Below, in pieces: positions 1 through 60,591 of a DNA stretch of 64,000 bases (position 1 is its first letter; each line of letters begins with the position of its first letter). Below the pieces are notes generated by a model. The model did not search any database, was not told the origin of the DNA, and saw nothing but the letters and a program-made list of their open reading frames with translations. Made by a program: the position numbers and the translations under genes. Origin of the DNA: a virus (taxonomy: Duplodnaviria; Heunggongvirae; Uroviricota; Caudoviricetes); IMG/VR virus record IMGVR_UViG_2897328257_000003; one strand, 5' to 3'.

Positions 1-1119
1 TTAAATAACCAACTTAACCCATTCCTGACCTCGGGTATCGTTATAGCGATCGGTGGTAGCCTGGACTTTATGTCCCAGTAATGTTTTTGTATCGACACCC
101 TGTGCGCGGTACAACCGTTCTGACAGGGAGCGTTGTTCATGAAATGTTGGCGGTGTTTTTCCTGCTGGTGGAATTATTCCAGCCAGATCTCGCGCTTTGG
201 CGAAGTAATCGCTCAGGTTGTCTTTACTCATCGGTTTTGGTTGTTTCTGGTGCCTACTATGGATTAGGTATGGACTCAACATTCTGTCCCTGCATCCATC
301 AATAACTTCTTTTAACGATACCCCAATTTCATCGCATCGTAGCGTAAGAGGTAAGGCCAGACGCATTCCGGTTTTTCCTTGGGTTATATGTAGATGTCCA
401 TTCCATACATCTGAAAAACGCATGTGGCAAATGTCATCACGGCGCTGACCAGTAACAATCGCAAGAAGCATTGCGTTACGGATAAAGTGTTTTTCTGGCG
501 TTGCATTATAAATTTTTTGCCAGTCTTCCAGGGTGAGTCTGGATCTGGTCACTTTAGGGATCGGTTTACGGGTAGCCTCCGGAGGATTCCATCCAGGAGG
601 AACTTCTCCCGCATGCTGTGCTTCTTTATAAATATCAACCCATAATCCGCGATTTACTCTTGCTGTGCTGACCATGTCTTTATCCATCCACTCGTCCAGT
701 ATTAATGCAAAGTCTCTTACCTCCAGTTCTTTCAATGGGTGGTTTCCCAGGCGGGAAACCAGGTATGCAGCCATTCGCACTTTTTCTTTGTGGGTTGTAG
801 CTGCAATGTCTCCATTTTTCAGTCGCGAATCCTGTATTTTCAGATATCGATCAACCCATGCCTTTAATCTGATACCCCGACGTTTTGTTGCTGACGGACT
901 TTCATCAATTTTGCGCATGAAATATTCAGCTTCTGCTGCAGCTATTCGCTGATTGGCTGTGGAAGCGATTTTTTCTGCCTTACCTTTGTCTGTTCCGAGT
1001 CCGTGAAATTTTCCAGTCACAGGATTTTTATACTGGTAGTAAACTCTGCCAGTTCTGCGATCAAACTTTTCGTAAAGACCGGCTACGTCAGTGCTGTTTT
1101 TTCGTGGCCTCGGTGACAT
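1..1119 (-). CDS. int: Tyrosine recombinase, lambda-type prophage integrase
   Basis: 372-aa ORF; C-terminal region (..PTFHEQRSLSERLY..LLGHKVQATTDRYNDTRGQEW..) parallels the lambda Int catalytic C-terminus as recalled; followed by an xis-like gene overlapping its start. Confidence 0.9.
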   Translation of the reverse strand: MSPRPRKNSTDVAGLYEKFDRRTGRVYYQYKNPVTGKFHGLGTDKGKAEKIASTANQRIAAAEAEYFMRKIDESPSATKRRGIRLKAWVDRYLKIQDSRLKNGDIAATTHKEKVRMAAYLVSRLGNHPLKELEVRDFALILDEWMDKDMVSTARVNRGLWVDIYKEAQHAGEVPPGWNPPEATRKPIPKVTRSRLTLEDWQKIYNATPEKHFIRNAMLLAIVTGQRRDDICHMRFSDVWNGHLHITQGKTGMRLALPLTLRCDEIGVSLKEVIDGCRDRMLSPYLIHSRHQKQPKPMSKDNLSDYFAKARDLAGIIPPAGKTPPTFHEQRSLSERLYRAQGVDTKTLLGHKVQATTDRYNDTRGQEWVKLVI

Positions 1120-1366
1120 GAGTTAAAATCTCCTTCAGTGCATCATCATCGCCAGTATGAATTTCCGGCGCAATTCCCGTTTCACCAGGCCCAACAAATA
1201 CTGCTCGGCGATCTATCAGCCAACGCCCACGAATTTTTTGTGGTCTTGGAACGATGTATCCTAGTTTTCCGTATTTCACCAGGGTAGTGTTTGTTATTGG
1301 GAGACTGAACCGTTTTGGTTTCCACTCATCGAGCGTTATCAGGTACTGTTCGCTCATGGCTATCAC
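1088..1366 (-). CDS. xis: Excisionase-like protein (Xis family); start may be the internal Met at 1357
   Basis: 92-aa ORF overlapping the int start in another frame; N-terminus MSEQYLITLDEW resembles lambda Xis YLTLQEW. Confidence 0.6.
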   Translation of the reverse strand: MIAMSEQYLITLDEWKPKRFSLPITNTTLVKYGKLGYIVPRPQKIRGRWLIDRRAVFVGPGETGIAPEIHTGDDDALKEILTHVTEATKKQH

Positions 1367-1418
1367 TCCGGAACGCGCCAGTTGCAGAATACCAACGACA
1401 ACTGGCGACGGTTGAACA

Positions 1419-3863
1419 TTAAAAATCAGCCTGACTCGGGATCAGTTTTTGCCAGATAGCTGAAACGTATTTTGCCTGGTAACGCGCATCGTGCAGGGCA
1501 TTATGGCGCTCACCCTCAAATGTGATGACACTTCGAGCATCGAAATCCATCACCAGTCCCAGAGCAACCATCGTTCTTACATCGCGATCATTGGTGTAAC
1601 GCCATGGGCAGGGGATCCCCTGCCGTTCATATGAACGGCGTAAAATTACGTTGTCAAAGTTGGCTCCATTTCCCCAGACCTGAACAAAAAATTCACCGGA
1701 GTTTTCGTCGATAAATTCCCGTAATTGCAACAGTGCGTCATCCAACGGGATTTCATCGGTCAGAATGGCTGATTGTGCTTCCCGTGACTGTTTCAGCCAC
1801 CACTTAATGGTGTCCCGATCGATGACTCCGCCCGCGGTTTCCAGATCGATAGTTTTGCTGAATTCTGGCCCCATCTCTCCGGTTGCCGGATCAAAAAACT
1901 TACCGGCCAGAGCGTTTATTGGCGCATCAGGATTTTTGCCCATTGTTTCAAGGTCAATCATCAGATGGTGCCACAACCTGCTGGTGGATGTGCTTTCGTG
2001 ATGACCGTTCACCTTAATTAAGGGATTTGCTGTCTCGCCTGTTTCATTATTGCCATTGGCATGTTGATCGCCTTCGGTACACTCCTTGTTCGGGTATACG
2101 GCACTTTCCATTTCCTCTGGATCTTTCTCCCGGGCTTCATCCTGGCTTTCTTCGTTGAATGTTTCCTGGTATGTTGCGTCGCCCATTACCGCGCCACAGT
2201 CAGGACAGTTGCCGTCGCCGGTCTGACCGCAGGCGTTGCAGACTTTTTCCGGTTCTTGTTGCTCTTCTGGTTCAGGCTGTTTCGTTTCTGGCTCGTTTTG
2301 TAACGCATTTGGGCTGTTTTGTTCCGCTTTCTGGTCGTTTTGTTCCGATTTGTGCTGGTTCTGGTTCACAGAGTCGCGGGTTTCAATCCCCTTCACCCAT
2401 TTCGGATCATTCGGGTCGCTAATCCCTTCAACAAATTCTCCGTGAGAAGCAGCCAGTAATTTATCTGCATCGACAGGATTTTTGGGGGGAATGTTTTTCC
2501 TGGCTTCATGGAGTTCTGCACGCAGTTTCTGATATTTCGCATCAACAGAATTTATCTGTGGCTGAGCATCCATCGACTGCGTGTCCTGATTATGTTCAGT
2601 TGTATCCGGTTCCACTGCTTCAGTCGTTGCCTGTTCATCTGCCATTGCGCCAGTTGGCTGCGGTTTTTCTTCATCATCCTGTTTTCCTTCTTTTGTTACA
2701 CGCTGCGGCATTGGAGCAGAGGAGCGACCGCAGGCAATATCCACGATTTCTGGATCAGGGTTGGCATGGTCGGTTTCGGTCAGTACTTTGTTCAGATATT
2801 CGGTAACACGGTGGGGAGTAGCCTCGATACCAATTGGTGCTTCTTTCACGGACGCAACCACTATCGCGCGGGAATAATCCAGGTGACCAGGCATGGCGAT
2901 GAATTTGTCACGAAAAACAGAAAAGGGCGGCTTATTCTCTGAAACGATTTCTTCAATGCGTTTGGCGTGTGCCGGATGTGGATTGTAAATATCGATGTCC
3001 ATTGAACGGGCCAGAACGCCAGCGGCAACGTCACGTTCCACTGACGCATCATCGTGGACAAAACCTTCACCGCGATCGGTAAGAATTCCTCCGCCAGCAT
3101 TAGCGCCGGATGGCGTGCGGCTGATGCGTAAAACACGATTTCCTTTCATCCACTCTTTTGTCAGCAGACCTCGATCGGTATAGTCAGCGTCCAGGTATGC
3201 TTCGAAAAAAGCAGTCATTAACCCCAGACTGGAATTAACGGGATTAGGGAAAACTTTGTCTGTGTCGCGTACCAGTTTGTGAAGGTCGCGAATCTCCAGC
3301 GGGTCGAGCAGCTTTGTGTTGTGGGAAATAGCCAGGGCAGTAACAGCAGGCAGTTCTTCAGCTCGTGCGATATGTAATGCCTGAAGTTCTTCCCGTGAAA
3401 CGTGCGTTACCGGTTTTTCGCTGCCATGTTGCGCAAGCCAGCGAATGGGCAGTTCCTGACCGGAAATCGGCAGGAGCATATTATCCTCAATCTCAGCCAT
3501 GTCTTCGCCATTGACGTTGGTATTGTCAGAGCTGGCTGGTTTGTCCTGAACTGAGGGGGAAGGCGCTATAAATATCATTGTGATGCCATCTTCCCCGCCT
3601 TTTTCATAGCGGTTGCAGAATTCAGTATCGAACACACCTTCAGGCGGCAGGTCATTAACAATGGGCAAATTCACGCGAACAGGTTTTTTGAAATCCTCTT
3701 CGTCAAATCCAGCATCGTCCATTGCGACAACACCCCGTGATATTGCAACCGATAATTTTTTTGCTGTGCGCCAGTAAAAACCGCCTTTAATCCCAAGGCG
3801 TTTTCTGACTTTGTCATTTTTGGCTTCGTAATACAGTGCAATTTCTTCTTTATCAGTGCTCAT
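1419..3863 (-). CDS. Prophage exonuclease (814 aa) with central acidic/Gln-rich low-complexity region, Cys4 zinc-ribbon (CNACG..CPDCG) and C-terminal DEDD-type 3'-5' exonuclease-like domain; resembles proteins annotated as exodeoxyribonuclease VIII-like in E. coli prophages
   Basis: Long uninterrupted ORF in the early-left position next to xis; C-terminal motifs (..MIDLETMG.., ..HNALHDARY..) match DnaQ-like exonuclease signatures by eye. Confidence 0.7.
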
Positions 3864-3955
3864 TGATAAACCTCATAACTATTTTAAGGTTGTACGAATC
3901 CCTGCCATTGCTGGCATGCTTAATCAACGGGTATGGCGTTAATACGGCTGGCGGG

Positions 3956-4144
3956 TTATCCAGCCGGTATTTCGTTATTCAGGTACAGCGATACTTTGTT
4001 TAACGGGAGACATTCACCGGAAATTTTTTGCTCGTCTCTTGCCTGATGGCAGGATTCTTTACTGGCATAAATTCCGGTAATCACATTCTGTGGCTCACCT
4101 GTTATAAGAAAAACCGTCATCATCAGTGCAAACGCTGAACTCAC
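3956..4144 (-). CDS. Hypothetical small early-left protein (62 aa, hydrophobic N-terminus)
   Basis: ORF on the same strand directly upstream of the exonuclease gene; no recognised family. Confidence 0.4.
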   Translation of the reverse strand: MSSAFALMMTVFLITGEPQNVITGIYASKESCHQARDEQKISGECLPLNKVSLYLNNEIPAG

Positions 4145-4329
4145 TGCTGCCCTCCGAAAATGCCAAGTTCAAGAAGGGCAATTCTGGAGAGTATGGAATT
4201 ATCATTGAGAAGATAAGGCTCATATTTTCTCATCCTGATGGCGTCCTCAGTAAACTCCCGGTTACTGAGCAGAATACCAATATTAAAACACCCTTCAGAC
4301 GTATTAACGTTTGGTAGTGACGTTTCCAT
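4141..4329 (-). CDS. Hypothetical small early-left protein (62 aa)
   Basis: ORF with a 4-nt overlap to the downstream small ORF; start lies inside a sequence duplicated across an N-run, so the exact 5' context is uncertain. Confidence 0.35.
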   Translation of the reverse strand: METSLPNVNTSEGCFNIGILLSNREFTEDAIRMRKYEPYLLNDNSILSRIALLELGIFGGQQ

Positions 4330-4527
4330 TATCGCGTCCTCAACAATGAATTTTGTGATGTGGTGCCTGGTGCCTCCAGGTGACGTTAACCAGTTAACAA
4401 TTAACGCCGGANNNNNNNNNNNACGTTTGGTAGTGACGTTTCCATTATCGCGTCCTCAACAATGAATTTTGTGATGTGGTGCCTGGTGCCTCCAGGTGAC
4501 GTTAACCAGTTAACAATTAACGCCGGA
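4307..4527. repeat. Exact ~105-bp direct duplication flanking a ~10-nt N-run (approx. 4412-4422); probable contig-join artefact
   Basis: Sequence acgtttggtagtgacgtttccattatcgcg...ttaacgccgga occurs identically on both sides of the N-run. Confidence 0.6.
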
Positions 4528-4997
4528 TTGTTAGTTGATGTCTGTTACGCCAGTAAAAGACCGCTTGTTTTAACTGTTCCGCGTGCGCTTAGCCGCATTC
4601 ACCGCATCACAAAATACACTTTAAAAATGGCGGATATCCATTTCCGCCGAATCACCAGAAAAGTGATAACAGAGGTTGTTGTGGCGGTGTTGTCACTCAG
4701 GCGTATGGTCAACCTGACAACCCGGTGCATTTTCTGGAGCAATGGAGGAAGCCCCAGCCATACTTACCGCCGCGCCATTTCGCGGATTGCCACAACCGGA
4801 AGCGCACGATCGAATTACATTTAACGACGACATATACAGAGAGACTAACTTCGCCGAGCGCTTTCGTGTTGTGTGCCTGCTTTTAACCACGTCAGGCGAG
4901 GTGGACCTGTTATTCCCCAACAACAAGGAGCTTGTTAATCTGGATATCCCCAACAACAATAAGAGTATTGAATGTGATCGCTGAATTAACGGCAGCA

Positions 4998-5489
4998 ATG
5001 ACGGCTATTCGTGAAACCGCTCAGATTACAAAACTAATGAACGAGGCAAAAACTCAAGCTGAAGTAAATGCGGCTATTGGTGAACTGAACTCAAAGCTTG
5101 CATCTATTCAGCACGAATGCGTGTCTCTCGTTGAGCTGGTGAGCACTTATCAAGAAATAAATGCTTCTCTCAAAGCTAAAATTGCAGAATTTGAAAACTT
5201 TGAGGCTCAGACGGAAGGTTATATCCTTAACCAACTTGAGTCGGGAACTTTTGTGTACTCGAAGGAGGTAACCGTGAACGGCGGCAGCATAATCATGCAT
5301 CTTTGTCCAAAATGTTTTGGACAAAAGATAGTATCGATACTTCAACCATTCCCGGTTAGAGAACATGAGTTTTTTCATAAAAGCAGGTGCCTCTACTGTG
5401 AAAATCAGTTTCTTATGAATAAAAATCCGGATTATGTATCGCCTCCATCTATTGAGGAGTTGGCCAGAAAACTGAACGGCAATCTGTAG
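4998..5489 (+). CDS. Hypothetical moron protein: N-terminal coiled-coil-like region plus C-terminal Cys4 zinc-ribbon (CPKC ... CLYC); alternative starts GTG 4974 or internal GTG 5274
   Basis: ORF on the strand opposite to the early-left genes, AT-rich relative to flanks, preceded by ~470 bp of non-coding DNA; internal in-frame AAGGAGGT (5262-5269) plus GTG (5274). Confidence 0.55.
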   Translation: MTAIRETAQITKLMNEAKTQAEVNAAIGELNSKLASIQHECVSLVELVSTYQEINASLKAKIAEFENFEAQTEGYILNQLESGTFVYSKEVTVNGGSIIMHLCPKCFGQKIVSILQPFPVREHEFFHKSRCLYCENQFLMNKNPDYVSPPSIEELARKLNGNL

Positions 5490-5602
5490 ATTGTTACTGT
5501 TATGGATATCCAGATTGTTAAAGAGCATGCCGGATGCTTGCTTGTGTCCGGCGCGTGTGCACCAGTTCTCCCCGTGGAGGATTCCTTAACTACCAGACTT
5601 CA

Positions 5603-5755
5603 TTAGTCAGAGTTTCTTGCTAACCAGCGACGCGCGCCAGCTTCAGTTTTAAACGTTTTGCTTCTGGTATACGTCATCGCGGTAAACGTGCCGTCCTGGT
5701 TGGGGAATACTCCGCATACCAGAGATTCGTTGTTGCCAAGATTGAGCGTATCCAT
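5603..5755 (-). CDS. Small protein (50 aa), YdaF/DUF1391-like as recalled
   Basis: Hand-translated ORF MDTLNLGNNESLVCGVFPNQDGTFTAMTYTRSKTFKTEAGARRWLARNSD; below the ORF-track size cut-off; position downstream of the repressor matches the Rac ydaF/ydaG locus. Confidence 0.45.
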   Translation of the reverse strand: MDTLNLGNNESLVCGVFPNQDGTFTAMTYTRSKTFKTEAGARRWLARNSD

Positions 5756-5791
5756 GTTGACCTCATTTGCCCTTAACGCCGGGTCGCGGAA

Positions 5792-6016
5792 CTAAAAACC
5801 TGCTGCGCTGTTATACAAAGTGTTCCCGCCGTCATGTTCATACGCCTCGGGCTGGCTACTTAACCCCTGACCACTGCCTGGTAACTCGAAGTATTGCCTG
5901 GCGTTCTGTGGGGCGGGGTGGGTTGGTGATATAATGTACCTGCTGTTCATTAATGTAAAGTACTTTTGGTACATTTTTGTGAGGGGTAAAATATCAGGAG
6001 GGGATGAGAGGAGCAT
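5792..6016 (-). CDS. Hypothetical ORF (74 aa) downstream of the repressor; weak RBS, may be non-coding
   Basis: ORF only; no recognisable Shine-Dalgarno sequence; no family recognised. Confidence 0.25.
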   Translation of the reverse strand: MLLSSPPDILPLTKMYQKYFTLMNSRYIISPTHPAPQNARQYFELPGSGQGLSSQPEAYEHDGGNTLYNSAAGF

Positions 6017-6050
6017 AAACCCGGAGGGAAGCTACCGGATTTATGCAGAT

Positions 6051-6470
6051 TCAGGAGGCTTTTTGTTTTTTCTTTCGCGCTAATTCTTCATAAATTGCGT
6101 TGTACTTCTGTTTTTTCTCCTCAAGAGTTTTTAAAAGTTCATCAGTTTCACTGTCAGGGAGTTCATCAAGAAGTTCAATGATGATTTTTTGCTTCGGACT
6201 TAACTCCTGATAGAAACGCAGGCTTCCGCTTTCTTCAGTGTCCTCCCCCAGAAGGTAAGTTGGTGTTGTTCCGATAAGTGCTGCCAATTCTTTCAGTTTC
6301 TCTCGACGGGGAATTGCCTCTCCATTAAACCATTTACTAACCGCTTTGGGTGTTAGCTTCATTCGACGGGCAATTTCTGCCTGCCTTCCGTGTTGTTCAA
6401 AGCCAGCATTTTCACAGGCTAGCGCAAGCCTGCTGGCGAACTCTTTACGCGCTTCATCTTCATGAACCAT
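6051..6470 (-). CDS. Prophage repressor, XRE-family HTH, DicA/RacR-like
   Basis: 139 aa; N-terminal HTH (..QAEIARRMKLTPKAVSKWFNGEAIP..) and C-terminal ..LSPKQKIIIELLDELPDSETDELL.. closely parallel DicA as recalled; divergent from a cro-position gene. Confidence 0.85.
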   Translation of the reverse strand: MVHEDEARKEFASRLALACENAGFEQHGRQAEIARRMKLTPKAVSKWFNGEAIPRREKLKELAALIGTTPTYLLGEDTEESGSLRFYQELSPKQKIIIELLDELPDSETDELLKTLEEKKQKYNAIYEELARKKKQKAS

Positions 6471-6549
6471 AAGTTCAATGATATTTGCTATTGAATGTAC
6501 TGTCAGTTCTGTTATATTGTGTACTCAAAGTTCACATTGTGAGGGTGAT
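6471..6549. promoter_or_regulatory. Divergent promoter/operator region of the immunity switch (repressor vs cro-like gene)
   Basis: 79-bp AT-rich intergenic region between divergent start codons, with repeated TGTAC-containing half-sites (..aatgtactgtcag..tgtgtactcaa..). Confidence 0.5.
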
Positions 6550-6816
6550 ATGAGCCATACAACACTTGCAGATGTAATCAAAGCAGTTCGCGTTTCTGTT
6601 GTAGCCGATGTTTGCGGTGTCAGCCAAAGAGCAATCTACAAATGGATGAATAATGGAAAATTACCGCGCACAGAATATACAGGCGAAACAAATTACGCTG
6701 AAAAAATTGCTCTGGCATCAAACGGATTATTTTCTGCTGATGCGGTTTTGACTATTGGCAGGATTAAGCCTACAGCGAATGAATCACTGGCGGTGAACAA
6801 TGAAAATCACCCCTGA
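6550..6816 (+). CDS. Cro-position HTH protein, YdaS/DicC-like
   Basis: 88 aa from ATG 6550 preceded by GAGGG; HTH-like ..VADVCGVSQRAIYKWMNNGKLP..; divergent from the repressor. Confidence 0.7.
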   Translation: MSHTTLADVIKAVRVSVVADVCGVSQRAIYKWMNNGKLPRTEYTGETNYAEKIALASNGLFSADAVLTIGRIKPTANESLAVNNENHP

Positions 6817-7351
6817 ACAGGTTTGTGAGGCTCTGGATGCCTGGGTATGCCGACCAGGAATGACACAGGAGCAGGCGACGATATTAATCACGGAAGCATT
6901 CTGGGCTCTGAAAGAACGCCCGAACATCGATGTTCAACGCGTCACGTTTAATGATGGCGAGGTTGATCAACGGGCGCTGGGCGTTAATCGAGTGAAGATA
7001 TTCGAACGCTGGAAGGCTATCGACACCAGGGATAAGCGTGAAAAATTCACGGCGCTGATTCCGGCAATTATGGAGGCTATCCGGGTAAGTGATTTCAGGT
7101 TGTATTGTGAAATTACTGACGGAAAAAGCATTACGTACATGATCGCCGGGTTAAACAAAGAGTATGGCGATGTGGTGGAGTCCGGGCTGCTTTTTGCGGA
7201 TCCAGTTGTTGTGGAACGTGAGACTGATGAGCTTATAGAAAAAGCCATTGCTTTCAAGCGTGCGTATCGTCAGCAATACCAACATTACTTTGCAGATAAA
7301 CAAATATCTGTCTGGGGTTCGTATGAGTATCGATGCACTACGATGGGCTAA
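6800..7351 (+). CDS. YdaT-like protein (Rac ydaT family as recalled; proposed CII-analogue/toxic protein)
   Basis: 183 aa overlapping the end of the ydaS-like gene; segment ..DKREKFTALIPAIMEAIRVSDFRLYCEITD.. resembles YdaT. Confidence 0.6.
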   Translation: MKITPEQVCEALDAWVCRPGMTQEQATILITEAFWALKERPNIDVQRVTFNDGEVDQRALGVNRVKIFERWKAIDTRDKREKFTALIPAIMEAIRVSDFRLYCEITDGKSITYMIAGLNKEYGDVVESGLLFADPVVVERETDELIEKAIAFKRAYRQQYQHYFADKQISVWGSYEYRCTTMG

Positions 7352-8360
7352 AAAGGTGAAAACCGGCAGTTCATCCAGTAAGTCAGTATTGACCTGGCTT
7401 GCTGATATGTGCGGTGCCGATTTGTGCGCATACCCGTCTATATCTGCACTGGCAGAAGTAACGGAACTGAACAAAAAGACTGTGCAGGACAGTTTACGAC
7501 ACCTGATGGAGATTGGGTTAATTGTTGATACTGGTGAGAGAAAAGGCAGAACAAAGCAAATTGTGGTGTACCGACTTATCGGTGTAGAAGAAAGTGTTGC
7601 CGAGCCTGAATACACCCAAAAACGGGAGTCTTTAAAGGTGGGTAAAATTGGTACTGTTAATAAAAATAGTACCGAAAATGGTTATGTTTCAGCACAAAAC
7701 AGACCCAAAAACGGAACTCTTAGCTGCATGGAAAATAACCAAAGACACCCAAATTTTCCATCAAAGACACCCAAAAACGGATCACGGAACCCAAAGGAAC
7801 CCAAAGATCTAAACCCCACACATAACGCACGCGAGAGTGCTCCGACCAGTGAGCAGGAAGTTTTGTCGTTACAGGCAGCGCCCCCTGTATTCTTGGATGG
7901 CCTGAGCGAACCCATCGGGAAATTTTCGATGACTACTGTCTGGCAGCCGTCGCTGGATTTTCGACAACGGGCAGTAGTGTGGGGTATGGCTCTGCCTGAG
8001 CCGGAATTTACACCTGCAGAGCTTGCCGCATTCCGGGATTACTGGATGGCGGAGGGGAAGGTTTTCACGCAGGTTCAGTGGGAGCAGAAATTTGCCCGTC
8101 ACGTGCAGCACGTCAGGGCACAGGTAAAACCAGTCAGCAAGGGGGTAAGCCATGCAGCATCAGGTGGCACGGCATCACGGGCAGTTCAGGAAATCCGGGC
8201 AGCACGCGAACAGTGGGAACGTGAAAACGGATTTATCAGCAACGGAAACGGCCTGGAAGCTGTGGGAGCTTATGGGGGAGGTGTATTCGAACCGCTGGAC
8301 TCAGAAGAATGGGGCCGCACCTTCGAAGCTCTGGATTGCCCAGATTGGTGCGATGACTGA
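7323..8360 (+). CDS. Replication initiation protein: N-terminal winged-helix DNA-binding domain, low-complexity linker, C-terminal DnaT-like domain
   Basis: C-terminal ..GKFSMTTVWQPSLDFRQRAVVWGMALPEPEFTPAELAAFRDYWMAEGKVFTQVQWEQKFAR.. closely parallels E. coli DnaT as recalled; iteron-like repeats inside the linker-coding DNA. Confidence 0.7.
   Translation: MSIDALRWAKKVKTGSSSSKSVLTWLADMCGADLCAYPSISALAEVTELNKKTVQDSLRHLMEIGLIVDTGERKGRTKQIVVYRLIGVEESVAEPEYTQKRESLKVGKIGTVNKNSTENGYVSAQNRPKNGTLSCMENNQRHPNFPSKTPKNGSRNPKEPKDLNPTHNARESAPTSEQEVLSLQAAPPVFLDGLSEPIGKFSMTTVWQPSLDFRQRAVVWGMALPEPEFTPAELAAFRDYWMAEGKVFTQVQWEQKFARHVQHVRAQVKPVSKGVSHAASGGTASRAVQEIRAAREQWERENGFISNGNGLEAVGAYGGGVFEPLDSEEWGRTFEALDCPDWCDD
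7650..7810. repeat. Putative prophage replication origin: AT-rich palindrome followed by iteron-like direct repeats inside the replication gene
   Basis: GGTACTgttaataaaaatAGTACC palindrome; repeats gacccaaaaacggaac (7702-7717) and cacccaaaaacggatc (7768-7783), agacaccca x2, ggaacccaaag x2; analogous to lambda ori within O. Confidence 0.45.
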
Positions 8361-8814
8361 ACAGCAAATCCGTCTGGTCTGCCGTCAGTGCATGGACCGC
8401 TGCCGGGCGGGTGAAACGTGGCCCCCGGACCTGGCTGAGTTTGTTGCGCTGATTTCGGAGAGTGGGGCAAATCCATTTGGTCTTACGGTGGATGCCGTGA
8501 TGGAAGAGTACCGGCGCTGGCGCAATGAATCCTGGCGATACGACGGGAGTGATAAATACCCGTGGCCACAGCCTGTGCTGTACCACATCTGCCTCGAAAT
8601 GCGTACCAGAGGGATTGAGCGCCAGATGACGCAGGGTGAGTTAAAACGACTTGCGGAACGGCAACTGACGAAATGGGCAAAGCATGTTGGTAACGGGATG
8701 AGTGTTCCGCCAGTGCGACGACAACTGGAAGGGGCGAAACACCCGAAAGGGCCAACGCCAATTGAACGGCTGAAACAGGAATACGAACGCCGGAAGGCTG
8801 CTGGTTTTATTTGA
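8152..8814 (+). CDS. Lambda P-like replication protein (DnaB helicase loader family)
   Basis: 220 aa; strong RBS AAGGGGG before ATG 8152; ..TWPPDLAEFVAL.. and ..YPWPQPVLYHICLEMRTRGIERQMTQGELKRLAERQL.. parallel lambda P; overlaps the previous ORF by ~209 nt in another frame. Confidence 0.7.
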   Translation: MQHQVARHHGQFRKSGQHANSGNVKTDLSATETAWKLWELMGEVYSNRWTQKNGAAPSKLWIAQIGAMTEQQIRLVCRQCMDRCRAGETWPPDLAEFVALISESGANPFGLTVDAVMEEYRRWRNESWRYDGSDKYPWPQPVLYHICLEMRTRGIERQMTQGELKRLAERQLTKWAKHVGNGMSVPPVRRQLEGAKHPKGPTPIERLKQEYERRKAAGFI

Positions 8815-8847
8815 ATCTGGGAAACGATTTTGTCGGAGGAAATTTTA

Positions 8848-9564
8848 ATGGAAACCGTATTTGACGCACTGAAAGCACTGAAAAGAGCCTCTTCACAGGT
8901 AGTGGCGGCCCGCCTTGGAATCAGCCGTGAAGATGCGGTCAACGAACTGTGGAAACTGAAGCGCCGTGGTGAAGCGGATAACAAGGGGTCGATGTGGTGG
9001 CTGACTCAGGCAGGTGAAAGTGAACCAGTGTCACCGGTACCGAAAGTGACAGCGCAAATGCTGACTGAGGCGATTGAACAACATGGCCCACAAACGGCGG
9101 ATGAGCTGGCACTTATGTTCGGGATTACCTCCCGCCGGGCGAATTCATCGCTGGCCATGGCAATCAGCAAAGGGCGTCTGATTCGCGTAAATCAGGGCGG
9201 TAAATTTCGTTACTGCATACCGGGCGCTGATTTACCGGCAGAGCCGGAAGCTGCATCCGTAGCGGAAACCGATGGTAAAGCCTTTCCTCAGCCAGCAGGT
9301 GTTGCGTTACCAGTCCAGGAAACGACGACACAGGAAGAAATGAAAACAGAAATCGTGGAAGACATTGTGAAGTTACAGCCATCGGTCACCGAAACGAAAG
9401 CAGATAACCTGATTCTACCATCGCTGCATGTGGCTAACCGCGAGCTGCGCCGGGCAAAAGGTCAGGTTCAGAAGTGGGAGCGAGTCTGCGCCGCGCTGCG
9501 GGAGCTGAACAAGTGCCGGGATATTCTCTGGGATATTACCGCCACCAGAGAACAGCAGCGGTGA
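8848..9564 (+). CDS. Hypothetical prophage protein with two winged-helix-like segments (DUF1627-like as recalled)
   Basis: ATG 8848 preceded by GGAGGA at good spacing; ORF track places an upstream TTG at 8830. Confidence 0.55.
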
Positions 9565-9878
9565 GTGGGTGGAAGACGTGGTGCCGGGCTGAAATTCTGA
9601 TACTCCGGCAGTGCGCGGGAACAATGAAGGTAAAAAGCATTGGCGCACTTATCGGACGAACTGAAGCGGCAGTGAGAACGAAGGCACGGGAGTTGGGCAT
9701 CAGCATGATGTTACGTGGTGATTTTCACCCGTCGGCAAAATATTCTCAGCGTGATATTGAGCTGGCGCGGCAACTGCATCAGAGAGGCATGCAAAGAAGG
9801 GAAATTGCCAGAAAATTAGGCATGCCGCTGCGCATAGTGAATAACTACGTTTATTTCGACAGGAGGGTTCAGGCGTGA
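9561..9878 (+). CDS. Small DNA-binding protein with GcrA-like N-terminal HTH and a second sigma-70 region-4-like HTH
   Basis: GTG start overlapping the upstream stop (GTGA); pattern W..E.L....G.....I...+G.T.AV..K...LG resembles the GcrA N-terminus. Confidence 0.45.
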
Positions 9879-10180
9879 GGGTGAGCATTTATATCGCCGG
9901 TCCAATGACGGGATATGAAAATTTCAACCGCGAGGCGTTTCACAGGGCGGAAGAAGCACTGAAACGGGAAGGGCATACCGTTTTAAACCCGGCAGTACTT
10001 CCGGACGGGCTGACTCAGCCGCAGTACATGGATATTTGCATGGCAATGATTCGTTGTGTGGATGCGGTTTATATGCTGAAAGGCTGGCAGCGATCGGCAG
10101 GCGCTAAGGCAGAACTGGCACTGGCGGAGAAACTGGGACATGCGGTTATTTTCCAGGAGGCAACCAGTGAGCGAAATTAA
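9875..10180 (+). CDS. DUF4406-like protein (nucleoside 2-deoxyribosyltransferase-like fold family)
   Basis: 101 aa; GTG start after AGGAGGG with overlapped upstream stop; N-terminal ..VSIYIAGPMTGYENFNREAF.. is the characteristic motif as recalled. Confidence 0.65.
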   Translation: MRVSIYIAGPMTGYENFNREAFHRAEEALKREGHTVLNPAVLPDGLTQPQYMDICMAMIRCVDAVYMLKGWQRSAGAKAELALAEKLGHAVIFQEATSERN

Positions 10181-10329
10181 TTACCAGGAGCTACGGCAGG
10201 TGAAAGAGAAAGCATAATCCAGATCTGAATAATTAAAATCAGCACTGTAAATAAAATTTAATCCTTAACCGGAGGGATTTCTGCACCCTCAGAACATCAG
10301 GAGACCGCCAGAAAGGGCGGTAATGAAAA

Positions 10330-10698
10330 ATGACTGAATTAACAAAAGAGCAATTAATCAAAGAAGCCAAATTAAAAATAGCGGTTGCGAAATGTTACCC
10401 TAATTCAGAGATGGCCAGGGTAGAGGGAGAGCTATTCAAAATTGCACTGGCATCGCTGGAGGCGGTTCCGGTGGCATGGCTGCATTCAGACAATGGCCTG
10501 GGTATTCCAGCAATAACCAGGAGTAAAAACGTTGCTGATAGTTGGTTATCAAAGGGCTGGTATGTTCAGCCGTTATATGTAGCCCAACCTGTACCGGTGG
10601 TGCCGGATGCTCGTCCATCTTTAAATAATGGCATTGTCGGATTTGATGAAGGCTGGAATGCCTGCCGGGATGCCATGCTTAATGGAGATAAATCATGA
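10330..10698 (+). CDS. Hypothetical protein (122 aa), first gene of a coupled three-gene module; C-terminal ..EGWNACRDAML.. motif
   Basis: ORF after a 150-bp AT-rich intergenic region with promoter-like sequence and a hairpin just before the start; stop overlaps the next start (ATGA). Confidence 0.6.
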   Translation: MTELTKEQLIKEAKLKIAVAKCYPNSEMARVEGELFKIALASLEAVPVAWLHSDNGLGIPAITRSKNVADSWLSKGWYVQPLYVAQPVPVVPDARPSLNNGIVGFDEGWNACRDAMLNGDKS

Positions 10699-11396
10699 TT
10701 AATCGTATCAAACTGGAGCACATCCTCGAATATGCCGGGCAGCAGAGGCATATTGGTCAGCATTGTAAAATTCCACCAGGAGATATGGTTGAAATCATGG
10801 AGATTGCCATGCGCAAGGCTGGCAACCCTCCGGTAACTCCGGGGCGTTTGCCTGGCGGTTTCACCATTGAGGAGGCGAAGGAGTTACATGAAGACCTGGT
10901 GCGCAGCCACATAAGCAAGGCTTTAAGTGGCGAAAAGATGAAGAAGAAGGATCTCGATGCTGATTTGCGCTGGATCCATGGGGTTATAGTCCAGGCCGCC
11001 TGGTTTGTAAAAGCATCACTGGAGCAGAATGTGCTAACGGGTAACTCTCAGGTAATCCCTGATGACGGTCGCGAACAGTTTGAAACACTTATCAGGTTCC
11101 ATGCAGATGATAAAAACCATGAAACATTATTGCTTCGTGCTAACGAAGGGATGAATTACCGGGATCCAAATGTGGATTTGGCATGGATATTCTGGAAATC
11201 CAGTCGAGAGCACATATTGCCTGGAAAAAGCGACAATAATCCAGCATCAGGCGATCAGGTAAGTGAATTAACAATGTGGGTGAAGCGGTTATCTCATTCC
11301 TTAAAAAGCGTTAATAAATCAAGCAAACTACCGGATAAAGCGATGGACTACCTGAAGCGAAACGGACTGATAAACGAGGAGAATATTTTACGATGA
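10695..11396 (+). CDS. Hypothetical protein (233 aa), second gene of the coupled module
   Basis: ATGA overlaps with both neighbours; no recognised domain. Confidence 0.6.
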   Translation: MINRIKLEHILEYAGQQRHIGQHCKIPPGDMVEIMEIAMRKAGNPPVTPGRLPGGFTIEEAKELHEDLVRSHISKALSGEKMKKKDLDADLRWIHGVIVQAAWFVKASLEQNVLTGNSQVIPDDGREQFETLIRFHADDKNHETLLLRANEGMNYRDPNVDLAWIFWKSSREHILPGKSDNNPASGDQVSELTMWVKRLSHSLKSVNKSSKLPDKAMDYLKRNGLINEENILR

Positions 11397-11476
11397 CCTG
11401 GCCTGAAGCGTTCATAACGGTAGGAATTGCAATGGCGGTGGCGCTGGTGGTGTATTCGATTTGCCGCTGGGGATAA
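11393..11476 (+). CDS. Putative 27-aa hydrophobic (single transmembrane-like) peptide, third gene of the module
   Basis: Hand-translated MTWPEAFITVGIAMAVALVVYSICRWG; start overlaps the upstream stop (ATGA); below ORF-track cut-off. Confidence 0.3.
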   Translation: MTWPEAFITVGIAMAVALVVYSICRWG

Positions 11477-11538
11477 AAACGGTTTGCGGGGAAAGAAGAG
11501 TTAAGTAGAATTGCTGCGGGTGCTTGAGGCTGTCTGCC

Positions 11539-58918: not shown

Positions 58919-59144
58919 TTTTTTTCGTGTTTTTTCAGTATGCGCATACTGGATAAGTGCACAGATACAACGTGAAACAATGTGCAACAACGTGACANNN
59001 NNNNNNNNATACTGGCGGGAACACATGAAAACGTAACCACGCTACCAGTAACCAGAATAAAATAATTTTTTTCGTGTTTTTTCAGTATGCGCATACTGGA
59101 TAAGTGCACAGATACAACGTGAAACAATGTGCAACAACGTGACA
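58862..59144. repeat. Exact ~136-bp direct duplication flanking a ~10-nt N-run (approx. 58998-59008); probable contig-join artefact
   Basis: atactggcgggaacacatgaaaacg...caacaacgtgaca occurs identically before and after the N-run; first copy includes the integrase 3' end. Confidence 0.6.
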
Positions 59145-59968: not shown

Positions 59969-60591
59969 NNNNNNNNNNNNNNNNNNNNNNNNNNNNNNNN
60001 NNNNNNNNNNNNNNNNNNNNNNNNNNNNNNNNNNNNNNNNNNNNNNNNNNNNNNNNNNNNNNNNNNNNNNNNNNNNNNNNNNNNNNNNNNNNNNNNNNNN
60101 NNNNNNNNNNNNNNNNNNNNNNNNNNNNNNNNNNNNNNNNNNNNNNNNNNNNNNNNNNNNNNNNNNNNNNNNNNNNNNNNNNNNNNNNNNNNNNNNNNNN
60201 NNNNNNNNNNNNNNNNNNNNNNNNNNNNNNNNNNNNNNNNNNNNNNNNNNNNNNNNNNNNNNNNNNNNNNNNNNNNNNNNNNNNNNNNNNNNNNNNNNNN
60301 NNNNNNNNNNNNNNNNNNNNNNNNNNNNNNNNNNNNNNNNNNNNNNNNNNNNNNNNNNNNNNNNNNNNNNNNNNNNNNNNNNNNNNNNNNNNNNNNNNNN
60401 NNNNNNNNNNNNNNNNNNNNNNNNNNNNNNNNNNNNNNNNNNNNNNNNNNNNNNNNNNNNNNNNNNNNNNNNNNNNNNNNNNNNNNNNNNNNNNNNNNNN
60501 NNNNNNNNNNNNNNNNNNNNNNNNNNNNNNNNNNNNNNNNNNNNNNNNNNNNNNNNNNNNNNNNNNNNNNNNNNNNNNNNNNNNNNNNNNN
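59969..60591. other. Unresolved sequence: 623-nt run of N inside the satellite element
   Basis: Contiguous n characters. Confidence 1.

What the first reader, a model, noticed from the sequence alone, without database searches (positions are those of the whole stretch)
4530..5489. AT-rich opposite-strand moron: coiled-coil plus zinc-ribbon protein with an internal perfect Shine-Dalgarno
The gene at 4998-5489 is the only readable one in the early-left region on the plus strand, is visibly more AT-rich than its flanks, and follows ~470 bp without a convincing ORF. The product has a long coiled-coil-like N-terminal half and a C-terminal CPKC...CLYC cluster. Inside the gene an in-frame AAGGAGGT (5262-5269) sits 4 nt before GTG 5274, so the zinc-ribbon domain could also be made as a separate ~71-aa product. 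The upstream non-coding stretch holds a GGCGGA-tatccatt-TCCGCC hairpin (about 4629-4648). Genes with these properties in lambdoid prophages are often exclusion or defence determinants; I do not recognise this one.
Basis: partly seen in the sequence, partly recalled or inferred. Interest (0 to 1): 0.55.

Follow-up and report, generated by a model that had tools for sequence, protein, structure and literature searches.

The report
Rip1-type prophage defence gene
The unrecognised backwards-facing gene is a distant relative of Rip1, a prophage protein shown in 2026 to kill infected cells by forming a membrane pore around ring-shaped phage proteins. It sits in the classic sieB exclusion slot behind the sieB-type regulatory leader.

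Summary
The plus-strand gene is real, but it starts at GTG 4974, not ATG 4998, and encodes 171 aa. A profile of 38 homologues matches the solved HK446 Rip1 ('ring interacting pore 1', PDB 9oox) over its full length at E 5e-24. The AlphaFold model's only significant PDB hits are two 9oox chains, and the protein shares phrog_1244 with HK446 Rip1, HK620 HkaP and JBD30 gp30.

The upstream 'non-coding' stretch has three parts:
- a scaffold-gap duplication;
- a 107-nt leader homologous to the P22 sieB leader, the sas antisense RNA locus.

That leader's core precedes at least 30 different cargo families in phage contigs.

The internal start has comparative support. Codons 101 and 108 are start-type codons in all 20 close-clade genes, although the perfect Shine-Dalgarno sequence is subclade-specific. 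A competing signal exists: the in-phase antisense frame lacks stop codons across the family, so the antisense ORF may also matter. No function was tested here.

The parts
4974..5489 (+). Rip1-family gene: GTG start, 171 aa. Residues ~2-79 form two long helices; residues ~84-150 form a beta-rich domain with C111/C114/C139/C142.
   Evidence: PGAP CDS WP_033885209.1. Conserved N-terminus and GTG start. phrog_1244, E 1.9e-57. Profile against PDB 9oox Rip1, E 5.2e-24. AF2 pLDDT 91. Foldseek 9oox_M, E 6e-7, TM 0.72 normalised to the target.
4867..4973 (+). sieB-type leader, the locus of the P22 sas antisense RNA. Near-invariant core GCCTGCTTTTAACCACGTCAGGCGAGGTGG at 4875-4904; TCCCCAACAACAA repeated at 4914-4926 and 4947-4959; weak SD AAGAG before GTG 4974.
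   Evidence: More conserved than the protein across genera. Aligns with the published P22 sas reads (PMC13397905). The core occurs in at least 120 viral contigs ahead of at least 30 cargo families, including SieB PF14163.
5262..5276 (+). Internal AAGGAGGT, then AACC, then in-frame GTG (codon 101). Candidate start of a 71-aa C-terminal product.
   Evidence: Codon 101 is GTG x17 and TTG x3 in clade A. SD pairing -13.0 kcal/mol here, but median percentile 0.46 across homologues.
5295..5297 (+). In-frame ATG (codon 108). Second candidate internal start, giving a 64-aa product.
   Evidence: Codon 108 is GTG x17 and ATG x3 in clade A. SD-like pairing is moderately enriched before it, median percentile 0.16. 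Translation.
5091..5378 (-). In-phase antisense ORF of 95 aa, co-directional with the early-left operon. In this window the frame stays open up to ATG 5528 (145 aa).
   Evidence: Antisense-stop codons TTA/CTA/TCA are 63 of 189 Leu+Ser codons in codons 1-45 but 1 of 330 in codons 46-127. Start and stop positions recur in all enterobacterial homologues. Synonymous variation is halved in codons 61-135. There is no family hit and no excess of conservative antisense changes once Leu and Ser are excluded.
5491..5516 (+). 3' element that is an inverted copy of leader segment 4937-4962. Core GGATATCCAGATT pairs with AATCTGGATATCC.
   Evidence: 26 nt, 81% complementary. An 11-14 nt perfect complement occurs in 14 of 20 clade-A loci, against a shuffle mean of 5.7 and maximum of 10. 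In relatives it is followed by an intrinsic terminator that is absent here.
4623..4661 (-). Shortened DicF-like sRNA. The 5' UUUCUGGUGA is kept, ~19 nt are missing internally, and the terminator hairpin at 4629-4648 is followed by U5.
   Evidence: Alignment to K-12 dicF. Terminator scan. Fold z = -2.8. No Rfam DicF hit.
4530..4866 (-). Untranslated part of the dicBF-type early-left operon, between the inserted cassette and dicB.
   Evidence: Homologous to the K-12 ydfC-dicF-dicB intergenic region. Sub-threshold Rfam STnc100 match at 4435-4630(-), 31 bits. ORFs in this stretch have no family hits.
4412..4527 (.). Scaffold artefact: 11 N, then a 105-bp duplicate of 4307-4411.
4141..4329 (-). dicB, downstream gene of the operon that the cassette interrupts.
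   Evidence: PF05358, E 7e-34; annotation.
5603..5755 (-). ydfA-like DUF1391 gene, first gene of the early-left operon. A promoter-like site lies at 5931-5959(-).
   Evidence: PF07151, E 5e-30; promoter scan.

Best explanation
The plus-strand gene 4974-5489 is a divergent member of the Rip1 (ring-interacting pore) family of prophage-encoded antiphage proteins. It lies in a lambdoid prophage integrated next to ompW in a Shiga-toxigenic E. coli. There it occupies the slot of the early-left operon that holds sieB in P22 and lambda, and it replaces ydfB-ydfC of the dicBF-type operon. It is read against that operon and is preceded by the sieB-type leader.

Shown here: homology, fold, architecture and genomic position.

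Inferred from the characterised relatives (P. aeruginosa prophage Rip1 and HK446 Rip1):
1. The protein is made in the lysogen and is harmless alone.
2. An infecting phage assembles a ring-shaped small terminase or portal.
3. The C-terminal four-cysteine domain docks around that ring.
4. The resulting Rip1 ring inserts its N-terminal helices into the inner membrane as a pore, killing the cell before progeny are made.

Inferred from the P22 sieB/esc/sas precedent and the shared leader: when the resident phage's own early-left promoter fires, transcription runs antisense through the gene and its leader. This would shut off the full-length protein and so protect the phage's own lytic cycle.
For: Homology and fold:
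- Profile of 38 homologues against PDB: 9oox_L 'ring interacting pore 1 (Rip1)', E 5.2e-24, residues 6-151 against 16-160 of 164; the next hit has E 0.14.
- AF2 model pLDDT 91. Foldseek against PDB finds 9oox_M and 9oox_L at E 6e-7; the next hit has E 0.12.
- Same PHROG (phrog_1244) as HK446 gp37, HK620 HkaP and JBD30 gp30.
- BLASTP E 2e-12 against HK446 Rip1 and E 2e-21 against JBD30 gp30.
- Four Cys, Y83, V94-Y95, Q46 and L66 are invariant across both clades.

Genomic position:
- In every context examined the gene is antiparallel to a lytic operon: HK446 and HK620 between N and cIII, JBD30 between the terminase subunits, PhiR49_1 and Citrobacter next to cI, O157:H7 and this window next to ydfA.
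- The leader is homologous to the P22 sas locus. The core element sits ahead of SieB genes.

Family function and distribution:
- Function of the family: review PMC13434031, section 5, and PDB title.
- The gene is intact and widespread: the cassette is at least 80% covered in 648 of 5426 complete E. coli genomes, and 3344 50%-identity clusters match at E<=1e-3.
Against: - Identity to the characterised Rip1 proteins is only 27-30%.
- The amphipathicity test of the N-terminal helix is inconclusive: maximum hydrophobic moment 0.42, P 0.08 against shuffles, similar to HK446 Rip1.
- No plus-strand sigma-70 promoter was found.
- The intrinsic terminator that closes the cassette in relatives is missing in this window, so expression in this lysogen is unproven.
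- The leader shows no significant thermodynamic structure in this copy (z +1.1 and +0.4).
- The primary Rip1 paper could not be read. The mechanism is taken from a review and from the PDB entry.
- The prophage's own terminase and portal lie in the 40-kb N run, so self-triggering could not be examined.
Confidence: 0.8

Rival explanations
1. Add-on to the main explanation: the gene makes two products, as sieB does (SieB plus its in-frame antidote Esc). Internal initiation at GTG 5274 (codon 101) or ATG 5295 (codon 108) would yield the 64-71-aa ring-binding four-cysteine domain without the pore-forming helices. That fragment could cap the ring and block pore assembly. It would continue to be made when a sas-like antisense RNA silences the main start.
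For: - Codons 101 and 108 are start-type codons in 20 of 20 clade-A genes (GTG17/TTG3 and GTG17/ATG3). GTG is 22% of other Val codons, and the conserved V94 is GTT10/GTA2/GTG8.
- The window has the strongest possible SD before codon 101 (-13.0 kcal/mol). A second subclade has AAGGAGGAAACG-GTG.
- SD-like pairing before codon 108 is moderately enriched, median percentile 0.16.
- The main start is a weak GTG with an AAGAG SD.
- The leader is homologous to the P22 sas target, where exactly this switch is documented.
Against: - SD strength before codon 101 is not enriched across homologues, median percentile 0.46.
- Wider family members have Ile, Ala or His at position 101.
- HK620 HkaP and JBD30 gp30 have no start codon at either site.
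- GTG/ATG and GTG/TTG also read as His and His/Gln in the in-phase antisense frame.
- Neighbouring codons (P112 CCA, I122 ATA, L66-I70) are equally frozen, so a nucleotide-level constraint other than initiation is possible.
Confidence: 0.35
2. The antisense in-phase ORF (5091-5378, minus strand, 95 aa; open to 5528 in this window) is translated as part of the early-left operon, in addition to the plus-strand gene. The product, or merely the act of translation (for example to prevent Rho-dependent polarity across the antisense cassette), matters to the phage.
For: - The sense codons that would be antisense stops are 63 of 189 Leu+Ser codons in codons 1-45 but 1 of 330 in codons 46-127 (naive Fisher p 4e-30; per-gene P 0.004-0.18). 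Other cargo families behind the same leader show no such bias.
- The bias holds in the distant HK620, L121 and HK446 genes.
- Start (antisense of the conserved His ~135) and stop (sense codons 40-46) recur, giving lengths of 91-99 aa with SD-like pairing of -5 to -11.6 kcal/mol in most.
- Synonymous difference rate is 0.28-0.31 in codons 61-135, against 0.53-0.56 outside.
Against: - Codon-position variation fits the plus frame.
- Once Leu and Ser are excluded, sense-synonymous changes are not enriched for conservative antisense replacements (0.15 +/- 0.10).
- The candidate antisense Cys residues are not invariant.
- No family hit in Pfam, PHROGs, PADLOC or NCBIfam. Only 7 clusters, all from this locus, match among 5.8 billion proteins.
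- The antisense start follows automatically from a conserved sense His.
- Low synonymous variation could reflect recombination joints in a mosaic gene.
Confidence: 0.3
3. The antisense ORF 5091-5528 is the real gene and the plus-strand ORF is spurious.
For: The antisense frame is open and co-oriented with its neighbours.
Against: - The plus-frame protein has thousands of homologues and a solved relative.
- Its four cysteines are invariant and the third codon position varies most.
Confidence: 0.02
4. The protein shares the Rip1 fold but acts differently, for example as an injection-blocking exclusion protein or a zinc-ribbon nucleic-acid binder.
For: - Low identity to tested Rip1 proteins.
- HK620 HkaP was annotated only as 'putative superinfection exclusion protein'.
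- Amphipathicity is inconclusive.
Against: - Homology is full length, including the N-terminal helices.
- Length (145-180 aa) and architecture are the same across 3344 clusters.
- The gene has the same genomic habit as tested members.
Confidence: 0.1

Closest known systems
Rip1 (ring interacting pore 1) of phage HK446 (PDB 9oox, complex with T6 small terminase) and of P. aeruginosa Mu-like prophages (JBD30 gp30 type); Patel et al., Nature 2026, doi 10.1038/s41586-025-10075-1
   Same: - Same PHROG, full-length profile match and best structural match.
- Same size and two-part architecture: N-terminal helices plus a C-terminal four-Cys beta domain.
- Prophage location, antiparallel to a lytic operon.
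- HK446 Rip1 also carries the sieB-type leader core.
   Different: - 27-30% identity, in a separate clade found across Enterobacterales.
- GTG main start.
- Conserved start-type codons at positions 101 and 108, absent in HK620 HkaP and JBD30 gp30.
- A different neighbourhood here, inside a dicBF-type operon.
- The trigger and phenotype were not tested.
P22/lambda sieB-esc-sas superinfection exclusion module (Ranade & Poteete 1993, as summarised in PMC12197685 and PMC13397905)
   Same: - Same slot in the early-left operon and same orientation.
- Homologous leader, which is the sas locus.
- Candidate in-frame internal start, as for Esc.
   Different: - The protein is unrelated to SieB: no PF14163 match and no membrane segments.
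- sas-like RNA production and a translational switch are only inferred here.
- In this copy the sequence after the conserved hairpin lacks the U-run seen in P22.
HK620 HkaP ('putative superinfection exclusion protein')
   Same: 30% identical homologue in the same PHROG, lying between N and cIII on the opposite strand with the same leader core.
   Different: Uncharacterised experimentally, as far as the held literature shows. It has no start-type codons at the two internal positions.
DicF sRNA / dicBF operon of the Qin prophage (E. coli K-12)
   Same: The flanking operon (ydfA ... DicF-like ... dicB) and the untranslated region are homologous.
   Different: ydfB-ydfC are replaced by the antiparallel Rip1-type cassette. 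The DicF-like RNA lacks ~19 internal nucleotides and does not match Rfam RF00039.

Membership tests
Rip1 (ring interacting pore) antiphage family | Significant full-length sequence homology to an experimentally characterised Rip1 | tested here: met
   Profile against 9oox_L, E 5.2e-24 over residues 6-151. BLASTP E 2e-12 (HK446) and 2e-21 (JBD30 gp30). Shared phrog_1244.
Rip1 (ring interacting pore) antiphage family | Same fold as the solved Rip1 chain | tested here: met
   AF2 pLDDT 91. Foldseek against PDB: 9oox_M, E 6e-7, TM 0.72 normalised to the target, 120 aligned columns; no other hit below E 0.1.
Rip1 (ring interacting pore) antiphage family | N-terminal amphipathic helix able to form the pore | tested here: inconclusive
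   Helices at residues 2-24 and 28-79 are predicted. Maximum hydrophobic moment is 0.42, against a shuffle mean of 0.28 (P 0.08), similar to HK446 Rip1 at 0.39-0.41.
Rip1 (ring interacting pore) antiphage family | C-terminal ring-contacting domain with conserved residues | tested here: met
   C111, C114, C139, C142, V94-Y95 and the ILQ motif are conserved from this clade to HK446, HK620 and JBD30. Metal binding itself was not tested.
Rip1 (ring interacting pore) antiphage family | Encoded in a prophage | tested here: met
   Lambdoid prophage at ompW between integrase/excisionase and the immunity region. Other contexts.
Rip1 (ring interacting pore) antiphage family | Protects against phage; activated by oligomeric small terminase or portal; permeabilises the membrane | not testable with these tools
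   Known for relatives only (PMC13434031 section 5).
sieB/esc/sas module | Leader homologous to the sas antisense RNA target | tested here: met
   Alignment of the window minus strand 4855-4982 with published P22 sas reads; the 3' half is near-identical. The same core precedes SieB genes.
sieB/esc/sas module | SieB protein (PF14163) | tested here: not met
   No SieB match for the window protein at E<=1. The gene is therefore not a sieB gene; only the slot and leader are shared.
sieB/esc/sas module | In-frame internal start giving a truncated product | tested here: inconclusive
   Start-type codons are fixed at positions 101 and 108, but SD conservation is partial and an antisense-frame explanation competes.
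DicF sRNA (Rfam RF00039), for the hairpin at 4629-4648 | Match to the Rfam covariance model | tested here: not met
   No hit at the gathering threshold or at E<=10.
DicF sRNA (Rfam RF00039), for the hairpin at 4629-4648 | Position between the operon's upstream ORFs and dicB, conserved 5' end and an intrinsic terminator | tested here: met
   Alignment to K-12 dicF: UUUCUGGUGA and the GGCGG...CCGCC-U5 terminator are kept, and ~19 nt are deleted. Terminator scan.
Moron (autonomous promoter-gene-terminator unit) | Own promoter and own terminator | tested here: inconclusive
   No plus-strand promoter-like site. Relatives end in an intrinsic terminator, but this copy does not. The cassette boundaries (4867-5526) are shared with unrelated phage backbones.

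The most novel reading that the evidence does not exclude
The locus is a three-layered self-safe defence cassette.
1. A Rip1-type pore former is controlled through the sieB-type leader by a sas-like antisense RNA made from the phage's own early-left transcript.
2. Conserved internal start codons yield the ring-binding domain alone, as an Esc-like antidote.
3. A conserved antisense reading frame is embedded in the same DNA and read with the lytic operon.

The shared 30-nt leader core ahead of at least 30 unrelated cargo families would then mark a general, swappable expression-and-immunity frame for prophage defence genes.
Probability: 0.2. Interest if true: 0.8.

Novelty: new member of a known kind. 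Interest (0 to 1): 0.55.

Why it matters
Naming. The result gives a name to a 'hypothetical protein'. The cassette is at least 80% covered in about 12% of complete E. coli genomes, including O157:H7, and the protein family is widespread in Enterobacterales. It is a Rip1-type abortive-infection pore, which is relevant to phage therapy host range and to prophage-prophage competition in Shiga-toxigenic strains.

Testable regulation. The locus bears on how a prophage avoids being killed by its own ring-sensing defence when it is induced. Three sequence-level candidates for that safeguard can each be tested with point mutations:
- the sieB/sas-type leader;
- the fixed internal start codons;
- the stop-free antisense frame.

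Wider use of the leader. The finding that many unrelated small genes share the same leader core suggests the 1993 P22 sieB/sas mechanism may be a general control module for accessory genes in lambdoid prophages.

Tried and rejected
- Pfam, NCBIfam and PADLOC gave only sub-threshold coiled-coil noise or nothing for the protein.
- Rfam found nothing at gathering thresholds in 1-11538. At E<=10 it gave only a sub-threshold STnc100 match and chance miRNA hits, with no DicF hit.
- The sigma-70 scan found no plus-strand promoter. I considered a reading of the leader core as -35 TTCACC, 16 nt, then an extended -10 TGgTATACT. It fits many short-leader cargo variants but not the Rip1-type leaders (GGTGGATCCTG; GGTGGACCTG here), so I did not adopt it.
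- A possible H-type pseudoknot in the core (GCCTG/CAGGC interleaved with CCAC/GTGG) cannot be tested for covariation, because these positions are invariant.
- G-U versus A-C counts in the covarying hairpin after the core (32 against 20) do not decide which strand is the functional RNA.
- MFE z-scores of the leader on either strand are not significant.
- The BLOSUM test for selection on antisense residues looked positive (+1.20 against +0.16). The effect disappeared when Leu and Ser were excluded.
- The same start-codon test on SieB genes flagged internal columns 25 and 36. I could not check these against the published Esc start.
- The Rip1 primary paper is not held.
- The search for related loci with the mixed-clade alignment failed. 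The viral scan with A1 returned mostly near-identical copies.
- AF2 of the antisense product was not run, because only a shallow alignment of near-identical sequences was permitted.
Full report
**What the window is.**
- Bases 4423-5800 are 100% identical to the chromosome of E. coli STEC435.
- There they lie in a lambdoid prophage next to ompW. On the minus strand the order is integrase, excisionase, exonuclease, a DUF1482 gene, dicB, then a lone plus-strand 'hypothetical protein', then DUF1391 (ydfA-like) and an HTH repressor. The rightward replication genes follow.
- The window carries assembly artefacts:
  - an 11-N gap at 4412-4422 whose right flank (4423-4527) repeats 4307-4411, while the reference has one copy;
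  - a 40-kb N run at 11539-52025 that hides the late genes.

**Checking the observation.**
- The start is wrong by eight codons. An alignment of 38 homologues from at least 12 genera begins MIAEL(S/T)AAM. In DNA this first codon is GTG in 18 of 19 clade-A genes that align at the first codon, and TTG in one. PGAP annotates 4974-5489.
- The plus frame is the coding one. Differences fall 0.34/0.25/0.52 on codon positions 1, 2 and 3.

**What the protein is.**
- Pfam, NCBIfam and PADLOC do not know it. PHROGs places it in phrog_1244, 'unknown function', at E 1.9e-57.
- A profile of the 38 homologues searched against all PDB chains gives one strong hit: 9oox chain L, 'ring interacting pore 1 (Rip1)', E 5.2e-24 over essentially the whole length. 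The next hit has E 0.14.
- The AlphaFold model (pLDDT 91) has two helices (2-24 and 28-79) followed by a beta-rich domain. By Foldseek it matches 9oox chains M and L (E 6e-7) and nothing else below E 0.1.
- The PDB title identifies 9oox as HK446 Rip1 bound to the T6 small terminase.
- HK446 gp37, HK620 HkaP and JBD30 gp30 all fall in phrog_1244. They are 27-30% identical to the window protein.
- All share the four cysteines, Y83, V94-Y95, Q46 and L66.

**What Rip1 does, from the review PMC13434031, summarising Patel et al., Nature 2026.**
- Rip1 is a prophage protein that is harmless alone.
- On infection it assembles as a 12-mer around the 11-mer small terminase ring, or is triggered through the portal in Pseudomonas phages.
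- Its C-terminal half contacts the ring and its N-terminal amphipathic helix forms a pore. The infected cell dies before the phage matures.
- I could not read the primary paper.

**Family size.**
- 3344 50%-identity clusters match at E<=1e-3, almost all 145-180 aa long.
- The 660-bp cassette is at least 80% covered in 648 of 5426 complete E. coli genomes, including O157:H7.

**Genomic habit.** In every context I opened, the gene runs against a lytic operon:
- between N and cIII in HK446 and HK620;
- between the small and large terminase genes in JBD30;
- beside cI in PhiR49_1 and a Citrobacter prophage;
- beside ydfA in O157:H7 and here.

In this window it replaces ydfB-ydfC of the dicBF-type operon.

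**The upstream 'non-coding' 470 bp is three things.**
1. 4423-4527 is the gap duplication.
2. 4530-4866 is homologous, on the minus strand, to the K-12 ydfC-dicF-dicB intergenic region.
   - That RNA keeps the DicF 5' end UUUCUGGUGA and the GGCGG/CCGCC-U5 terminator, but lacks about 19 internal nucleotides.
   - The scan calls it a minus-strand terminator. It folds with z = -2.8. It does not match Rfam's DicF model.
3. 4867-4973 is a leader that is more conserved than the protein itself across genera.

**The leader is the sieB/sas leader.**
- A scan of viral contigs for the leader core (GCCTGnCTTTTnnCCACnTCAGGC) hit at least 120 contigs. Only 11 carry a Rip1-type gene behind it.
- The ORFs behind the core fall into at least 30 families. 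The largest is SieB, PF14163. The others tested belong to PHROGs of unknown function or to none.
- The published reads of the P22 sas antisense RNA (PMC13397905, Table 2) align to the minus strand of the window leader, and the 3' half is nearly identical.
- In P22, sieB encodes the exclusion protein SieB and an in-frame truncated product, Esc. The sas RNA switches translation between the two (summaries in PMC12197685 and PMC7067206).
- After the core comes a hairpin whose stem sequence differs between cargo types while pairing is kept: TTCTCG/CGAGAA, TTCTTGG/CCAAGAA, TACTGG/CCAGTA, TCCTTTTA/TAAAAGGA, ATCCT/AGGAT and others.
- The Rip1-type gene therefore sits in the sieB slot and uses the sieB-type control region. 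That this region works here as it does in P22 is inference.

**The internal start.**
- In 20 clade-A genes (53-98% nucleotide identity, median 62%), the codon aligned to V101 is GTG 17 times and TTG 3 times. The codon aligned to M108 is GTG 17 times and ATG 3 times.
- GTG is only 22% of the other Val codons, and the invariant V94 uses GTT, GTA and GTG. Further loci agree.
- The perfect Shine-Dalgarno sequence is found in the window's own subclade, and as AAGGAGGA in a 65%-identical one. Elsewhere pairing before codon 101 is unremarkable, and pairing before codon 108 is moderately enriched.
- HK620 HkaP and JBD30 gp30 lack start codons at these positions.
It is not proof.

**A competing signal on the other strand.**
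- The sense codons TTA, CTA and TCA are the only ones that read as stops in the in-phase antisense frame. They make up a third of Leu+Ser codons in codons 1-45 and are essentially absent from codons 46-127 in 23 enterobacterial homologues (63 of 189 against 1 of 330).
- This includes the distant HK620 gene and L121; the HK446 gene, examined separately, shows the same stop-free stretch.
- Other cargo families behind the same leader show no such bias.
- The resulting antisense ORF has a recurring start (opposite the conserved His ~135), a recurring stop (opposite codons 40-46) and a length of 91-99 aa. In the window it is 5091-5378, open to 5528.
- Synonymous variation is halved in codons 61-135.
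- Evidence against a selected protein product:
  - once Leu and Ser are excluded, sense-silent changes are no more conservative in the antisense frame than expected;
  - the product matches no family;
  - the conserved antisense start is an automatic consequence of a conserved sense His.
- GTG/ATG at codon 108 and GTG/TTG at codon 101 would read as His and His/Gln in that frame, so the two explanations cannot be separated here.
- A nearly invariant 30-nt block (5169-5201, codons 66-76) may instead be a recombination joint, since N-terminal and C-terminal halves are visibly reassorted in the alignment.

**The 3' end.**
- Just after the stop codon lies an inverted copy of the leader segment that precedes the SD: 4937-4962 against 5491-5516, 81% over 26 nt.
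- An 11-14 nt perfect complement is present in 14 of 20 clade-A loci, against at most 10 in shuffles.
- In relatives it is followed by GTTAAAGAGC and an intrinsic terminator. In the window, homology stops at about 5526 and a hairpin without a T-run (5529-5552) follows.

**Verdict.**
- The gene is a new, divergent member of a family whose function became known in 2026.
- I put 0.8 on the statement that it is a Rip1-type pore-forming defence placed in the sieB slot. I put about 0.35 on a functional internal start and about 0.3 on a functional antisense frame.
- None of the functional steps was tested.

Noticed in passing
window 4412-4527; also 11539-52025, 58998-59008, 59969-60591: The window is a scaffold. 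The 11-N gap at 4412-4422 is followed by a 105-bp duplicate of 4307-4411 that covers the 5' end of dicB; the reference genome has one copy. A 40.5-kb N run hides almost all late genes, and the ORF listing reports meaningless 13,000-aa 'ORFs' across it.
   Followed up: yes
window 4623-4661 (-): A DicF-like sRNA has its 5' end and terminator conserved but ~19 internal nucleotides deleted relative to K-12 DicF. It escapes Rfam RF00039 even at E<=10. Whether it still regulates DicF targets is open.
   Followed up: partly
window 4875-4904; loci L022-L141: The 30-nt core GCCTGnCTTTTnnCCACnTCAGGCtcGGTGG is the conserved 3' part of the P22 sas locus. Fragments of the cassette's first 38-92 nt, which span this core, also match in a further ~1150 complete E. 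coli genomes with no annotated feature.
   Followed up: partly
window 4937-4962 and 5491-5516: An inverted repeat brackets the gene (leader AATCTGGATATCC against 3' GGATATCCAGATT). It is conserved in most clade-A loci and also around a second, unrelated cargo family (L062, L102). It could be a 5'-3' RNA pairing, a processing site on the antisense transcript, or cassette ends.
   Followed up: partly
window 5169-5201 (codons 66-76): The block CTCAAAGCnAAAATTGCAGAnTTyGAAnAyTTT is almost invariant at the nucleotide level in clade A, although synonymous sites elsewhere are near saturation. No promoter-like reading fits. It may be a recombination joint between reassorting N- and C-terminal halves.
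   Followed up: partly
window 5302-5325: A perfect 11-bp inverted repeat (TTTGTCCAAAA tg TTTTGGACAAA) is centred on the second cysteine codon (C114). It is specific to this subclade, because the residues after CPxC vary in other homologues.
   Followed up: no
window 4876-4885 and 5378-5387: A 10-nt perfect complement links the leader core (CCTGCTTTTA) to the codons for HKSR (TAAAAGCAGG). That is exactly where the candidate antisense ORF starts. It may be chance.
   Followed up: no
window 4435-4630 (-): A sub-threshold Rfam match to STnc100 (31 bits against a gathering score of 47, E 1e-4) covers the conserved untranslated stretch just upstream of dicB.
   Followed up: no
SieB genes in loci L022-L141 (cargo cluster 0): The same codon test applied to 15 SieB genes finds an invariant internal ATG at alignment column 25 and ATG/TTG at column 36. 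These are candidates for the Esc start, which I could not check against the 1993 paper.
   Followed up: partly
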